DNA of 64,000 bases from a virus: positions 20,775-84,774 of IMG/VR virus record IMGVR_UViG_3300047552_002060. The stretch is one strand, 5' to 3'. A model generated the notes under the pieces. The model was not told the origin of the DNA. It did no database searches and worked only from the letters and a program-made list of their open reading frames with translations. Of this stretch, positions 7,317-54,776 are shown one piece after another (within the stretch, counting starts at the first letter, position 1; every line of letters starts with the position of its first letter). Both the position numbers and the translations under genes were made by a program.

Positions 7317-7571
7317 ATGCCGATACGTATATTCTTTTTAAGCCAATTGAATAATCGAGTCCAACGTGGAGAATTGTCTCAAGGATGGCATTCGTGTTGG
7401 GCATTACTTAAATTCTTAACCTCTCTTAAACAGATTAAGTTGATAACTCCATCAACTTGGGATTCTGCTTATAGAGATGTTTGTGCTGTTTGGCAGGATT
7501 CAAAGCGAGCATTTAAATATGAAACAAAACAAAAAGAAATCTTACACACCACCTTCGAAACCTCTTCGTGA
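7317..7571 (+). CDS. small protein, FF..LKL family member
   Basis: ALLKFLTSLKQIKLITPSTWDSAY. Confidence 0.5.
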   Translation: MPIRIFFLSQLNNRVQRGELSQGWHSCWALLKFLTSLKQIKLITPSTWDSAYRDVCAVWQDSKRAFKYETKQKEILHTTFETSS

Positions 7572-7851
7572 CCCTGACCATATCAGTAAGAGAGGTGTAT
7601 ATTACTGGTGGAGTACGGAATGGCTCCGAGGCACCAATTCTGCCAACACTTCTTTTGGTCGAATTAAGGCCATTAAAGAGCGCGGAACAGTGAATCTATA
7701 TATGGTAAGTAAAGATGGCAACCTTACTTACATTCAAGGCAGCATCCAGCAAGAATTTAAGGATTGGCATCTGCAGAGAAAGATAGACTATTTCTTTCTA
7801 GCTGATGACCCAGAAGCACTGGACGATATCATTCTTGCGTCCGATCCGTGA
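7519..7851 (+). CDS. hypothetical protein
   Basis: ORF 7477-7851, likely ATG at 7519. Confidence 0.65.
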   Translation: MKQNKKKSYTPPSKPLRDPDHISKRGVYYWWSTEWLRGTNSANTSFGRIKAIKERGTVNLYMVSKDGNLTYIQGSIQQEFKDWHLQRKIDYFFLADDPEALDDIILASDP

Positions 7852-7859
7852 GTAAGTAG

Positions 7860-8669
7860 CTATACTCCTGCTCCTGGAACACCTGTCAGCATCGGTTTCG
7901 GTACGACGACTTCCTCGTCAATCTTAACATTCGGGTCACTCTCTTCTTTAACATGTTTATTTAGTTCAAGCTTAGGAACATTGTGACGATTAACTCTGCT
8001 GTACAGCTTGTGAACTAAGACTTCCATATCAGCATGTGCTGGAGTTTTCTTCAGCTGCGACGATCGCAGTTTACGAAGGTTTCCTCGCTTCTTAGGTTCA
8101 ACGACTTTATCTGCCAAGCCCAACTTAATAGTTTCTTCTGCAGAGAGATATAAGTCGCGCTGACACACATCTTCCCAAAAGCTCTTAGGCATCCTAGAAT
8201 TGGCTGCATACACGTCATAGAGCATATCCTGAAGACGCTTTGCCTCTTCCATCGCGATCTTCGCATCTGTATGTGTACCTTCGAAATATTCAGTGCCGTC
8301 ATGAATCATAACAGTCGTGTTTGGATAAAGATAGCGTTCGTCACAGATGGCCATAATCCATGTAGCACTACTCTGAACAATCCCACCGCCGAAAAACTTG
8401 ACTTGACATGGACAAGCTAAGATCTCATCACATAGCCGTAGCATCGAGTAGGGATCACCGCCGGCACTATTCATATATAGTTCTATGGGTTTTCCAGGGG
8501 CTTCATTCACAAGTCGATGAAGAGCTCTCACTGCGAGTTCGATCGAACGTTGAGTCACTTCTCCACACTCTTCATCGGCTTGACCTGTGTAGTCTCCGAA
8601 GTAGATACGACGGTTCTTGGTATCTATACCGTAATCTAGAAAGTCACCTAATTCCGTTTTAAGGGCCAT
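7860..8669 (-). CDS. clpP: ClpP-family ATP-dependent protease proteolytic subunit (copy 1)
   Basis: YMNSAGG, QSSA (catalytic Ser), MIHD (His), RDLYLSAEE..LGLADKV (Asp); C-terminal extension. Confidence 0.88.
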   Translation of the reverse strand: MALKTELGDFLDYGIDTKNRRIYFGDYTGQADEECGEVTQRSIELAVRALHRLVNEAPGKPIELYMNSAGGDPYSMLRLCDEILACPCQVKFFGGGIVQSSATWIMAICDERYLYPNTTVMIHDGTEYFEGTHTDAKIAMEEAKRLQDMLYDVYAANSRMPKSFWEDVCQRDLYLSAEETIKLGLADKVVEPKKRGNLRKLRSSQLKKTPAHADMEVLVHKLYSRVNRHNVPKLELNKHVKEESDPNVKIDEEVVVPKPMLTGVPGAGV

Positions 8670-8730
8670 AATTTAGTATTCTACCCCGTTTATAAGTGTT
8701 TAAAAAAGCAACAATAACCAAAAGGACAAC

Positions 8731-8997
8731 ATGTCTAAGAAAGAAACCGTGGAAGAATTTTTGAAGCGTGGTGGGACTATAACTAAAATCCCGCCAGTAG
8801 CACCCGCAGAAGACAGCAGCAATGACCACATTGTACCCACTACCAATGGCGGCGGAACAACTATGTTTACCCTAGGTGAGGGCGCCCTATATTATTCTGA
8901 ATCTAAAGCTAAGCCCAAGAAACTCAAGAAACTTGATGAAGTTATCAATAAGTCTGCTCTTCCTGCTTCTCTATTGAAATACATGTCCAAAAATTAA
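8731..8997 (+). CDS. SutA-like RNA polymerase-binding protein (putative)
   Basis: VEEFLKRGGTITKIPP resembles the SutA EEFLxRGGKVQEI core motif. Confidence 0.55.
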   Translation: MSKKETVEEFLKRGGTITKIPPVAPAEDSSNDHIVPTTNGGGTTMFTLGEGALYYSESKAKPKKLKKLDEVINKSALPASLLKYMSKN

Positions 8998-10682
8998 GTA
9001 GGATTTACCTTAGACACTAAGATTCCATCGACGAATGTTAATGATCCAGCAGCTCCAGGAGTGGTTAGTTTGGCGAGAGAAGCAGTGTCATTATTATTTG
9101 TTGTTGGAAACACACCGGGAATGTTAAGTGCAACCATGGCAGCAGCAGCCAAATCTTTGAATATGAGCTTCAATTGACTCTGCTGCAGTGGTAGCAGAGT
9201 ATTGTAATCTTGTAGTGGAGCTATCAGATCAGGGTCGACTCCTCCTTGGACTCCGTATAGGTAAGCCAATTGTAGTGCTTCGTCAAGATTCATAAATGTA
9301 TTGGCTTGACGCTGAGTAACAGACAATGGATCAACAATGGGCGTCGAACTTGTTATGGTTGGAGTTCCAATGTTGATTATTTGCTCTATGCCTGTTGCAA
9401 CAATTTGATTGCTTATTGCAGGTACACCCAGCTCTATAGATTGTTCGCTGCCCACTCCAACAACATTTGAAACTATCCCGGTTATTGGGGTGCCGATTAG
9501 AATATCTTGTTGGATGCCAGCTTCAACAGCGAATATTGAAGTATTGTTAGTGGGTACACCGACAGAGATATCTTGCTGAATGCCTATTGCAGTATGTGAT
9601 GTTATTGAACTGACAAGTGACAATCCTGTGTCAATCGTCTGATCAATGCCTATACCAATCGCGGGTATATAAACAGCTGCTATTGGAGTTCCAATAGTGA
9701 TGTCTTGTTGAATACCAACACTCAAAAATTCTCGATCTAGAGCACGCACTGCAGATGGCGTACCGACGTTGATAACTTGTCCAAAACCACTTCCAATTAC
9801 TGAAGCCGGTCCAGCAACCACCGGCGCTCCTACACTGATAGGCTCCAAGATTCCTACGCCAATAGTCGTGAGTGGATTAATATCAGCAGTAGGTGTACCG
9901 ACAGCTATAGTCTGTGCGATACCTACGCCCTGAGGTTCCTGTTGTTGAATAATTGCAGGTGTACCAATACTGATATTTTGTGCGACACCGACAGCTATAG
10001 TAGAAGCAAACAATCCAGAGGCTGGATCACCGACAGTAATAGTTTGATCAACACCTATGCTCGTTGAGGAGAGAGAAGTTGATGTGACTGGCGTTCCGAT
10101 ATCTATTGTTTGATCAATACCAACAGATTGAGCATCACCCTGCGACTGCATAGATGGAGTTCCAACAACGATATCTTGTTGGATACCAACGTTTACACAT
10201 GCAATTTGAGCAGGTTGAATAACGTCAACGACTAATCCTGGCCAATTGTAGGTTCCACTGCGCGGAATTACCCAAGAACTTCCAGTAAAGACAGCATTAT
10301 TCCTGATGCTAAGAGTGTAAGTATTTGTGCTGATTAATGGCCCAGAAAGCGCCAAAAGAATACTTCTTGCTCCAGCATTCCAAGTTACACTATTAATCGT
10401 CGGCGGAGTAGGTCCAGAGAGAGAGTAATCTGAGACAGTAGTGCTTACTGATTGCAGTGGAGCGGTGAATTGTATAGTAATAGTATTTACAGCTGATTCA
10501 CCATAGTGCGCTGACCACAATGCTCCTTGCACGACTTCTCTATCACCGGTGATAGAAAATTGACCGCGTTTGCCCGAATTTCCATTGAAGTTTGGAGCAA
10601 CATCAAAAGCCGAAGAAACTCTTTTCCAAGTATCTTGCTCCGTACTTGGCAATGCAAAATCATTGGATGCATAGGCAGTCAT
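8994..10682 (-). CDS. repeat-rich virion structural/fibre protein
   Basis: Ig-like N-terminal region, 13 GIxQxIxVGTP repeats, C-terminal module shared with 12713-13051. Confidence 0.7.
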   Translation of the reverse strand: MTAYASNDFALPSTEQDTWKRVSSAFDVAPNFNGNSGKRGQFSITGDREVVQGALWSAHYGESAVNTITIQFTAPLQSVSTTVSDYSLSGPTPPTINSVTWNAGARSILLALSGPLISTNTYTLSIRNNAVFTGSSWVIPRSGTYNWPGLVVDVIQPAQIACVNVGIQQDIVVGTPSMQSQGDAQSVGIDQTIDIGTPVTSTSLSSTSIGVDQTITVGDPASGLFASTIAVGVAQNISIGTPAIIQQQEPQGVGIAQTIAVGTPTADINPLTTIGVGILEPISVGAPVVAGPASVIGSGFGQVINVGTPSAVRALDREFLSVGIQQDITIGTPIAAVYIPAIGIGIDQTIDTGLSLVSSITSHTAIGIQQDISVGVPTNNTSIFAVEAGIQQDILIGTPITGIVSNVVGVGSEQSIELGVPAISNQIVATGIEQIINIGTPTITSSTPIVDPLSVTQRQANTFMNLDEALQLAYLYGVQGGVDPDLIAPLQDYNTLLPLQQSQLKLIFKDLAAAAMVALNIPGVFPTTNNNDTASLAKLTTPGAAGSLTFVDGILVSKVNPT

Positions 10683-54166: not shown

Positions 54167-54457
54167 CTATTTGTATAGAGGTAAATTAGAGAGCAGCTTA
54201 CGGATCTTCTCTCTAGGTTGCGGCTTAATTCCGATAGCCATTAAGGCTCCGCAATACGGTTCGTCTGGCTCACGAATTGATGAAATTTCTATACCAGCGC
54301 GCAATAGCTTATCTTCAACAGAGAGAAGAGTTTTCTCATCTGGAACTGATAAAACAATAGCGTGTGTATTTGGTGGAACAGAAATATTTTGTGCGCTTTC
54401 ACCAGCCGCATGGACTAACTGAGCGAGTATAGTCCCAAAAAGGAGATCTTTTCTCAC
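54167..54457 (-). CDS. pth2: peptidyl-tRNA hydrolase, Pth2 family (true N-terminus extends upstream)
   Basis: YCIVRKDL..G...AQLVHAA, IREPD, MAIGI.P, LSNLPL. Confidence 0.85.
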   Translation of the reverse strand: MRKDLLFGTILAQLVHAAGESAQNISVPPNTHAIVLSVPDEKTLLSVEDKLLRAGIEISSIREPDEPYCGALMAIGIKPQPREKIRKLLSNLPLYK

Positions 54458-54512
54458 TATACAATAGTGGTAAAGAATCTCAACCTTATCTACTTCTATG
54501 CCGCGAGCTTGG

Positions 54513-54542
54513 TTATCGCTGCAGGTGCTCGTACGAATTCAT
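54513..54542 (-). other. leaderless 9-codon uORF MNSYEHLQR overlapping the pth2 frame
   Basis: ATG 6 nt after TGGTATAAT; ends CGA TAA C; pth2 frame is +1. Confidence 0.55.
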
Positions 54543-54548
54543 AATAAG

Positions 54549-54557
54549 ATTATACCA
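54549..54557 (-). promoter_or_regulatory. extended -10 promoter TGGTATAAT
   Basis: Consensus TGnTATAAT. Confidence 0.65.
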
Positions 54558-54623
54558 CAGTGAATAATTTTAGTTTATAAAGAATATATCGAAACCGCAT
54601 CATTCTATGTTTATTAGACATTT

Positions 54624-54776
54624 TTACTTAAAATTCCGCGATAATTGCTGCCAATAAATCATCTTAAGCCAATTATCATTCATATTAGCTGAATTCTCAT
54701 TCAACCCCAGTTTCCAAAGTAACCAAAAGAAATCTTGAATAATAAGACGATCACTCCATTTCCACCAAATTTTCAT
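54624..54776 (-). CDS. small protein, FF..LxL family member
   Basis: IIQDFFWLLWKLGLNE...DNWL. Confidence 0.5.
   Translation of the reverse strand: MKIWWKWSDRLIIQDFFWLLWKLGLNENSANMNDNWLKMIYWQQLSRNFK

What the first reader, a model, noticed from the sequence alone, without database searches (positions are those of the whole stretch)
7317..54776. Hidden dispersed family of about 13 tiny ORFs sharing FFxxxxxLKL...W
Seen, aligned by eye: 25552 AAWRFFKVVNDLKLAN; 31430 ACWRFWYTIGELKLGN; 26088 AVFNFFNMIYLLKLAP; 15241 IVIYFFRTLRLLKLSE; 34634 AISSFYRCLALLKLGD; 28451 QLGVFFGMPYKLKLSK; 30304 TVFRFFTFLNWLGLCS; 54776(-) IIQDFFWLLWKLGLNE; 33587 CARKIFWVLWRLMLYS; 7317 ALLKFLTSLKQIKLIT. Weaker members are 25153, 25356, 25933 and 33913. 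Many have a W 5-9 residues later (TWDSAY, LWGSY, LWNVY, SWNFY, AWDTY). They are about 20-110 aa, usually translationally coupled to neighbours, with little evident DNA identity. Two look frameshifted, and four lie shortly after tRNA or tRNA-like genes. Inference: an expanding, fast-evolving microprotein family with one conserved docking helix and variable flanks. Candidate roles are anti-defence inhibitors, adaptors for the phage ClpP/AAA machinery, or cargo of a small mobile cassette. Several fall below gene-caller cutoffs.
Basis: partly seen in the sequence, partly recalled or inferred. Interest (0 to 1): 0.78.

Follow-up and report, generated by a model that had tools for sequence, protein, structure and literature searches.

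The report
Expanded family of tiny two-helix phage proteins
The shared motif is real and marks a fast-changing family of very small two-helix proteins that this uncultured phage and its closest relative carry in dozens of copies, with no match to any described family and no known function.

Summary
Observation confirmed and widened. All ten quoted peptides are at the stated places. FFx5LKL occurs 5 times in the 84.8-kb contig against 0.11 in whole-genome shuffles and 0.055 in shuffles of the gaps alone. All core copies lie in gap ORFs, on the strand of the flanking genes.

The signal is at protein level. A model trained only on the window's genome finds 11 ORFs above the best decoy in the closest complete relative, G001 (172.6 kb). 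G001 carries about 33-39 copies, mostly in tandem arrays. Conserved Leu and Ser use all six of their codons. The one clear ortholog pair has dN/dS about 0.10.

AlphaFold2 predicts two helices joined by a tight turn; the motif is the end of helix 1 plus the turn. Members are mostly basic. Pfam, PHROGs, PDB sequences, Foldseek and 1.84 billion representatives gave no relative.

More distant relatives hold 0-2 copies.

Function is unknown. My inference is stoichiometric binders made early in infection. The 33913 ORF is not supported as a member. Another first-stage reader of this scan noted the same motif in an overlapping window.

The parts
1..55 (+). 3' end of a 34-codon member that straddles the left edge of the window (genome 20726-20829). 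Its FFx5LKL motif lies at window -31 to -2.
7317..7571 (+). 84-codon ORF with an F-L-x5-I-K-L motif at 7413-7442, 109 nt after tRNA-Asn. Weak member.
   Evidence: Best hit in G001 is only E = 0.19.
15241..15372 (+). 43-codon member (FFx5LKL at 15268).
   Evidence: Scores 22.5 bits with profile A2, which includes this ORF itself, but only 6.4 bits with the G001-only model.
25153..25359 (+). 68-codon ORF whose ATG overlaps the stop of the HNH gene. It carries a variant in which the turn reads differently, followed by W-x-x-Y. Weak member.
   Evidence: It has no significant hit in G001.
25356..25574 (+). 72-codon ORF of the LFP-x-I / W-x-x-Y variant. It has a positional homolog in G001 (171158-171349).
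   Evidence: blastp E = 4e-6 at 39% identity; pN 0.45 against pS 0.70
25552..25716 (+). 54-codon core member, predicted as two helices (residues 10-24 and 30-52).
   Evidence: AlphaFold2 gives pLDDT 78.7. It shares a 14-residue stretch at 79% identity with non-syntenic G001 33569-33790. It matches a G001 LFP-variant ORF at E = 0.001.
25933..26088 (+).
   Evidence: 13.8 bits with the G001-only model, against a decoy top of 7.1
26088..26258 (+). 56-codon core member whose stop overlaps the start of the NT5C gene. In G001 the same position holds a typical member (169928-170104).
   Evidence: No direct blast hit between the two ORFs.
28451..28546 (+). 31-codon member that ends 5 residues after the motif. 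G001 has a similarly short ORF at the same position (167454-167687).
30304..30372 (+). 22-codon member, 60 nt after tRNA-Lys, consisting of helix 1 only. It has a positional homolog in G001 (165289-165483).
   Evidence: blastp E = 0.002 at 40% identity over 25 residues
31430..31648 (+). 72-codon core member whose ATG shares one base with the upstream stop codon.
   Evidence: Matches the 25525 ORF at E = 0.003-0.004 by phmmer.
33587..33916 (+). 109-codon ORF with a loose motif (I-F-x5-L-M-L); its ATG overlaps the stop of the dCMP deaminase gene. Weak member.
   Evidence: 7.7-8.8 bits with the G001-only models, against decoy tops of 6.4 and 7.1
33913..34161 (+). Membership is not supported.
   Evidence: E = 0.88 against the positional ORF of G001. 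It is not among the top 28 rows of either model.
34473..34637 (+). It is typical of the G001 type (helix, L-x-L-I-S turn, second helix).
   Evidence: 15.8 and 21.4 bits with the G001-only models
34634..34774 (+). 46-codon core member whose ATG overlaps the stop of the preceding member.
   Evidence: Only 5.7 bits with the G001-only model.
54624..54776 (-). 50-codon member that starts 2 nt after tRNA-Ser, with an AGGAG sequence inside the tRNA's 3' end. An ortholog and a tandem paralog are present in G001.
   Evidence: 66% amino-acid identity, E = 1.6e-22; dN/dS 0.10; context
24686..25156 (+). Context: an HNH endonuclease gene directly upstream of the 25153-26258 run of small ORFs. It is not matched at this place in G001.
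   Evidence: Pfam HNH_3, E = 4e-12; window 24692-26488 has no blastn match in G001

Best explanation
These ORFs are real genes of a lineage-specific family of very small proteins, about 40-60 residues and mostly basic. Each folds as two helices joined by a four- to five-residue turn. In the fuller form seen in the relative, I-S-x-x-T follows and starts helix 2. The family grew by repeated duplication: tandem arrays in the relative, and single copies wedged between conserved nucleotide-metabolism genes in this window. Outside the core the sequence changes so fast that positional counterparts in two phages with 70-79% DNA identity in conserved genes are barely alignable. What follows is inferred, not shown. 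The proteins are made with the neighbouring early or middle genes by coupled translation. They act as stoichiometric binders whose variable surfaces each fit a different host or phage macromolecule (host takeover or counter-defence). Their positive charge leaves nucleic acid open as a target.
For: Enrichment. Cross-genome recognition: 11 G001 ORFs above the decoy with a model built from this genome. Recognition the other way found 34473-34637 and 25933. Arrays: nine consecutive ORFs on the minus strand and about twelve on the plus strand within 8 kb of G001. Iterative search grew from 13 seeds to 21, 24, 33 and 39 ORFs above decoy+2. Profile A2 gave 36 matches in G001 and 15 in G000; A2 includes 7 ORFs of this window and about 30 of G001, so their own rows match by construction. 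Protein-level constraint: in 33 G001 members the two Leu columns (27 of 33 each) use all six Leu codons, Ser (22 of 33) uses both TCN and AGY, and Thr uses all four codons. In the window's 10 copies the second codon position is T in 10 of 10 at the Leu sites, while the third position is mixed. dN/dS is 0.10 for the tRNA-Ser-linked ortholog pair. Fold: pLDDT 81.9 with helices 10-26 and 31-43; pLDDT 78.7 with helices 10-24 and 30-52. Charge: 30 of 37 members have pI above 8, median 9.7, against 6.5 for the long genes. Positional counterparts that keep the motif. Start/stop overlaps of 1-4 nt at 25153, 25356, 26258/26255, 31430, 33587, 33913 and 34634. Open frames are longer than chance.
Against: There is no expression evidence of any kind. 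Most window copies lack a recognisable Shine-Dalgarno sequence, and three are only 22-34 codons, too short for the hairpin, so some may be decaying remnants. Two others (the copy straddling the left edge and the tRNA-Ser-linked one) reach 8.8 and 9.6, and the rest are not among the 28 rows listed. Their link to the G001 family therefore rests on helix 1, the turn and position. In the 8-12 bit range about half of the window hits are off-frame or antisense inside known genes, that is, false. Basic pI is common in short ORFs generally. The models are of 45-54 residues and built from shallow alignments. Function is pure inference.
Confidence: 0.6

Rival explanations
1. They are miniature helix-turn-helix DNA- or RNA-binding proteins, such as regulators or nucleoid- or RNA-coating factors. 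The L-G/K-L-I-S-x-x-T stretch would be the turn, and helix 2 would read nucleic acid.
For: The pattern hydrophobic-x-x-L-G-L-(I)-S-x-x-T resembles the A-x-x-L-G-V-S-x-x-T core of classical helix-turn-helix motifs (recalled, not from a call). 30 of 37 members are basic. Two helices with a short turn are predicted.
Against: 0 of 24 members hit any Pfam helix-turn-helix family at E <= 1. Only two helices are predicted, where the classical domain needs three. By my reading of alignment A2, the spacing from G to S and T is one residue longer than in the classical motif, and the positions that should be hydrophobic in the recognition helix are R or E. Foldseek gave no PDB match with E below 1.
Confidence: 0.15
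2. The motif is a nucleic-acid signal (promoter, terminator, recombination site or structured RNA) that merely reads as FFx5LKL in one frame.
For: The sites lie between genes, on the sense strand, often 60-150 nt upstream of the next gene. K is AAG in 5 of the 7 Lys codons at the K/G position among the window's 10 copies (7 of 10 codons there end in G). One copy sits on a terminator-like hairpin followed by a T-run (26099-26136).
Against: Codon-level pattern: conserved Leu uses six codons, Ser both codon families and Thr four codons in 33 copies. Information sits at second codon positions. No DNA repeat family was found. Promoter-like and terminator-like hits are at chance level (22 against 24.0, and 9 against 7.5). 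dN/dS is 0.10. Frames are longer than chance.
Confidence: 0.03
3. Most of the window's copies are decaying remnants (pseudogenes) of a family that is functional only in relatives such as G001. The motif survives because it is the most recently lost part.
For: Window copies are shorter (22, 31 and 34 codons) and often lack a Shine-Dalgarno sequence, whereas many G001 copies have one. Helix 2 is poorly conserved in them.
Against: The short forms at 28451 and 30304 have equally short counterparts at the same positions in G001, which argues for a kept architecture. Frames are open and coupled to neighbours. The 54776 copy is under purifying selection. 25552 models as a full hairpin.
Confidence: 0.15
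4. Chance: a hydrophobic helix pattern picked out by eye among many AT-rich short ORFs.
For: The patterns were defined after the fact. The loosest pattern has a background of 7 among 18 hits. Pairwise similarity is weak.
Against: (0 of 300 and 0 of 1000 shuffles reach the observed counts). Cross-genome recognition against decoys. 362 kb of distant relatives give nothing clearly above the decoy: best 11.5 against 10.1 bits.
Confidence: 0.02

Closest known systems
Host-takeover module of Bacillus phage SPO1 (a cluster of 26 small early genes; PMC6873191, where I saw only the search listing and the start of the abstract)
   Same: Both are a dense run of small genes of mostly unknown function in a large myovirus. 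This phage's capsid protein is distantly like those of SPO1-type phages (about 30% identity). Individual SPO1 members act as stoichiometric binders of host proteins, according to the listed abstracts of PMC8892312 and PMC8208478.
   Different: The SPO1 genes are not described there as one paralogous family. Here one fold is repeated 30 or more times. There is no sequence match: 0 of 24 members hit PHROGs at E <= 0.1. Early expression is not shown here.
Hyperplastic regions of T4-type phages with PeSL promoter/stem-loop cassettes (PMC2839356 and PMC4122927; search listing and start of abstracts only)
   Same: Both have variable small ORFs without homologs, grouped between blocks of conserved genes and differing between close relatives. 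A homing endonuclease and tRNA genes lie nearby here.
   Different: PeSL shuffling depends on repeated DNA motifs flanking the ORFs. No such DNA repeats were found here, and promoter- and terminator-like sites are at chance level. Here the ORFs themselves are paralogs.
Multigene families of large eukaryotic DNA viruses (ASFV MGF, poxvirus gene 'accordions'); recalled, not from a call
   Same: Tandem amplification and rapid divergence of one small fold inside a viral genome, usually read as an arms race with the host.
   Different: Different viruses and folds, much larger proteins, and the eukaryotic cases have experimental backing.
Classical helix-turn-helix motif (recalled)
   Same: Local sequence pattern L-G-(hydrophobic)-S-x-x-T between two helices; basic proteins.
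   Different: One extra residue in the turn, only two helices, and no profile match.

Membership tests
Any described protein family (Pfam-A, PHROGs v4, PDB chains) | Significant profile or sequence match | tested here: not met
   Pfam: 0 of 24 members at a meaningful level (best E = 0.073, unrelated families). PHROGs: 0 of 24 at E <= 0.1. PDB sequences: best E = 1.3. Foldseek against PDB: 0 matches with E <= 0.001. ESM Atlas: no usable hit.
Classical helix-turn-helix DNA-binding domain | Three-helix core with the canonical spacing G(0), hydrophobic(+1), S(+2), T(+5), hydrophobic(+6) (recalled definition) | tested here: not met
   Two helices are predicted. In alignment A2 the S is at +3 and the T at +6, followed by R (consensus).
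Classical helix-turn-helix DNA-binding domain | Binds DNA | not testable with these tools
   Only the charge is known: 30 of 37 members have pI above 8.
T4-type PeSL mobile cassettes | Repeated promoter plus stem-loop DNA motif flanking the variable ORFs | tested here: not met
   No direct-repeat family at these sites among the 20 largest of at least 60 families. Promoter-like sites 22 against 24.0 expected, terminator-like 9 against 7.5.
SPO1-type host-takeover module | Sequence relatedness to the SPO1 genes | tested here: not met
   PHROGs 0 of 24. No phage record matched the region by megablast.
SPO1-type host-takeover module | Early transcription and shut-off of host functions | not testable with these tools
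   No RNA holder was listed.
The family defined here (two-helix microproteins of the G000/G001 phage lineage) | Short ORF on the sense strand in a gap, with the hydrophobic helix-1 pattern ending in L-x-L, scoring above decoys with a model from the other genome | tested here: met
   Met for 34473, 25933 and 54776(-); 33587 is marginal. The G000-trained model finds 11 ORFs in G001. Not met for 26088, 15241 and 34634 with the G001-only model (5.7-6.5 bits against a decoy top of 7.1). These three are kept on the motif statistics and, for 26088, on position.

The most novel reading that the evidence does not exclude
The arrays are a phage-encoded repertoire of mini-binders. One minimal two-helix scaffold has been duplicated dozens of times and diversified on its surface, so that each copy neutralises a different host factor or defence protein. 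Copies are gained, lost and moved between genome positions by recombination between paralogs. An example is the shared 14-residue stretch between window 25552 and a non-syntenic G001 copy. If true, this would be a bacterial-virus counterpart of the multigene 'accordions' of large eukaryotic viruses, built from one of the smallest folded units known.
Probability: 0.2. Interest if true: 0.8.

Novelty: new variant of a known kind. Interest (0 to 1): 0.55.

Why it matters
Small phage genes are the main source of newly found inhibitors of host machinery and of anti-defence proteins, and most are missed by gene callers. Here a single scaffold of about 45 residues is present in roughly 36 copies in one 172-kb phage genome and about 15 in the half-genome that holds this window. 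It has no relatives in Pfam, PHROGs, PDB or 1.84 billion representative proteins. The family offers a ready-made natural library on one minimal fold, so comparing copies should separate scaffold residues from target-binding residues. It also shows that annotation of this phage clade is missing dozens of genes: 7 of 10 window members are absent from the protein collection under any start I tried.

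Tried and rejected
1. Megablast of window 25000-35000 against 50,697 phage records found no match.

2. DNA repeat search and promoter/terminator scans found nothing at the motif sites beyond chance. 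The DNA-signal reading was rejected on codon evidence.

3. Pairwise phmmer among the window's copies gave only one pair below E = 0.01.

4. The profile search of 1.84 billion representatives returned 8 hits at E <= 0.001. Seven are the query's own rows. The eighth is a 3128-residue protein with ten near-identical repeats, each matching weakly; I judged it spurious.

5. The word-indexed search of 5.8 billion proteins returned 5 hits, all from these phages.

6. ESM Atlas gave no usable hit.

7. Foldseek against PDB gave nothing with E below 1; a two-helix hairpin is too generic for this search.

8. Homodimer prediction for the 34473 member with alignment A2 gave no verdict (score 0.00 against a mark of 0.42). 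It counts neither for nor against self-association.

9. RNA sequencing runs: no RNA holder was listed.

With the single 54776 protein it found 3 loci.

11. RiPP-precursor arrays were considered and dropped. By my reading of alignment A2, the conserved part is central rather than an N-terminal leader, and the variable tails are not rich in Cys, Ser or Thr. Neighbouring genes were not searched for modifying enzymes.

12. A transmembrane reading of helix 1 was dropped. From the sequences, the hydrophobic run is about 12 residues and is interrupted by K, D or R.

13. The ClpP-adaptor idea: a ClpP gene exists, but no test was possible.

14. Supplementary files of papers were not consulted. No paper was read beyond search listings.

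Full report
WHERE THE WINDOW LIES. The window is bases 20775-84774 of an 84,774-nt IMG/VR virus contig (G000) that CheckV rates 49% complete. Its capsid protein is about 30% identical to those of SPO1-type Bacillus myoviruses. An earlier follow-up note of this scan calls it an uncultured freshwater phage; I did not test that. The region from 23.5 to 34.6 kb encodes an RNA ligase, an HNH endonuclease, an NT5C nucleotidase, a thymidylate-synthase-like protein, a dCMP deaminase and a UDG-superfamily protein, all on the + strand. A ClpP gene lies at 7860-8669(-).

THE OBSERVATION. FFx5LKL occurs 5 times in six-frame translation of the contig, all on the + strand, against a mean of 0.11 in 300 dinucleotide shuffles. 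The broader [FWY][FWY]x5L[KG]L pattern occurs 10 times against 1.00. The loosest pattern occurs 18 times against 7.2.

Gaps are richer in AT, so I also shuffled only the 51 gaps between long ORFs. The counts were 5 against 0.055, 9 against 0.30 and 12 against 2.05, and none of 1000 shuffles reached the observed numbers. An eleventh strict copy lies just left of the window. Frames that carry the motif are open for a median of 63 codons, against 28-30 for random frame positions in gaps.

PROTEIN OR NUCLEIC ACID. No DNA repeat family covers the sites. Promoter-like and terminator-like matches are at chance level. In the ten copies the information sits at second codon positions: T in 10 of 10 at the Leu sites, with first and third positions mixed. 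In 33 copies of the relative, the two conserved Leu columns use all six Leu codons, the conserved Ser uses both TCN and AGY, and Thr uses all four codons. This is conservation of amino acids, not of bases.

THE RELATIVE. A search with the thymidylate-synthase-like protein found 20 related viral loci. The closest is a complete 172,623-nt genome with terminal repeats (G001). It is 66-79% identical in DNA over the conserved genes, while the stretches that hold the small ORFs do not align. I fetched G001.

A 20-residue block model made only from the ten copies of G000 scores 11 G001 ORFs at 9.5-22.2 bits, against a best reversed decoy of 8.4. One of the 11 is the ortholog of the copy next to tRNA-Ser.

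Reading the G001 ORFs showed tandem arrays of ORFs of about 45-60 codons, often with overlapping stops and starts. Nine lie in a row on one strand and about twelve on the other within 8 kb. Their fuller consensus is a hydrophobic, aromatic helix, then L-G/K-L-I-S-x-x-T-R, then a second helix that often ends in W.

Iterative search inside G001 grew from 13 seeds to 21, 24, 33 and 39 ORFs above decoy+2. An independent tool with profile A2 gave 36 matches in G001. It gave 6 in a 97-kb fragment whose matches have the same scores as G001's, so it is probably the same phage. It gave 1 in a 50-kb fragment, and 15 in G000 at E <= 0.05. A2 contains 7 window members and about 30 G001 members, so those rows match by construction.

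Five more distant relatives, 84-100% complete by CheckV, gave 2, 0, 1, 0 and 0 matches. The best of these looks like a genuine distant member. Across 19 loci (362 kb) of distant relatives nothing clearly exceeded the decoys. The expansion is therefore specific to this lineage.

RESULTS THAT CUT THE OTHER WAY. However, it scores 26088, 15241 and 34634 at only 5.7-6.5 bits, below the decoy top of 7.1. In the 8-12 bit range about half of the window hits are off-frame or antisense inside known genes.

The window's 'FF..LKL' copies thus share helix 1 and the turn with the G001 family, but not a recognisable helix 2. Pairwise similarity among them is weak. The 33913 ORF does not match its positional counterpart (E = 0.88), and I do not count it as a member. 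Most window copies lack a Shine-Dalgarno sequence, and three are 22-34 codons long.

ORTHOLOGY AND SELECTION. The copy at 54776(-) starts 2 nt after tRNA-Ser, with AGGAG inside the tRNA's 3' end. G001 has the same arrangement plus a tandem paralog. The pair is 66% identical in protein and 73% in DNA, with pS 0.71 against pN 0.19 and dN/dS about 0.10.

The 25356 ORF has a positional homolog (E = 4e-6; pN 0.45 against pS 0.70), and so does 30304 (E = 0.002). At the positions of 26088, 28451, 33587, 34473 and 34634, G001 also has small ORFs with the motif, although they do not align otherwise. The short forms at 28451 and 30304 are equally short in G001.

Window 25552 shares a 14-residue stretch at 79% identity with a G001 copy in a non-syntenic place. 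It also matches a G001 ORF of the 'LFP' variant at E = 0.001, which ties 25153 and 25356 loosely to the family. The HNH gene at 24686-25156 has no counterpart at this place in G001.

STRUCTURE AND CHEMISTRY. AlphaFold2 with the family alignment predicts two helices for a G001 member (residues 10-26 and 31-43, pLDDT 81.9) and for window 25552 (10-24 and 30-52, pLDDT 78.7). The motif is the end of helix 1 and the turn. Thirty of 37 members have pI above 8, with a median of 9.7, against 6.5 for the long genes.

COMPARISON WITH WHAT IS KNOWN. There was no hit in Pfam (24 members, E <= 1), PHROGs (E <= 0.1), PDB sequences (best E = 1.3), Foldseek against PDB, or the ESM Atlas. Among 1.84 billion representative proteins, the only hits were the query's own rows and one spurious repeat protein.

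The local pattern recalls a helix-turn-helix, but the spacing is one residue longer and only two helices are predicted. The setting recalls the SPO1 host-takeover module and the T4-type hyperplastic regions (listings only). Those are not single paralogous families, and the T4 cassettes depend on DNA repeats that are absent here.

MECHANISM. Shown: this is a real, protein-level, lineage-specific and highly amplified family with a predicted two-helix fold. Inferred: the conserved hydrophobic residues form the scaffold; translation is coupled to neighbouring genes; and the proteins act as binders with variable surfaces, in host takeover or counter-defence, possibly on nucleic acid. No call bears on function.

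VERDICT. It is a new protein family inside a known kind of phage genome feature. Another first-stage reader of this scan noted the same motif in an overlapping window.

Noticed in passing
window 24686-25156: The HNH endonuclease gene (Pfam HNH_3) sits between the RNA ligase gene and the run of small ORFs. The closest relative has no match for window 24692-26488, so this looks like a homing-endonuclease insertion.
   Followed up: partly
window 27632-28354 and 32398-33132: Two ORFs of 240 and 244 codons look like paralogs by eye (shared stretches near both ends). Neither hits Pfam above noise. G001 has counterparts of both.
   Followed up: no
window 14868-14942: ARAGORN calls a tRNA of unknown identity with a four-base anticodon (aaag). 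Other readers of this scan have flagged odd tRNA-like genes in this genome.
   Followed up: no
L038 2460-2966 and 4135-4623 (G001 62.5-64.6 kb): Two paralogous ORFs of 162-168 codons without Pfam hits lie between the two divergently oriented arrays of the small-protein family.
   Followed up: partly
L037 2544-2692 (G001 42.5 kb): ARAGORN reports a tmRNA-like gene with an 11-residue tag inside a run of tRNA genes in the relative phage.
   Followed up: no
window 27072-27224 and G001 168982-169218: An off-frame ORF inside the thymidylate-synthase-like gene carries a family-like motif in both phages. I read it as a false positive kept by conservation of the overlapping gene.
   Followed up: partly
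window 26099-26136: A terminator-like hairpin with a T-run overlaps the first aromatic residues of the 26088 member.
   Followed up: no
window 7860-8669 (-): A ClpP-family protease gene (Pfam CLP_protease, E = 3.9e-26). Its own helix matches the loosest motif pattern by chance.
   Followed up: partly
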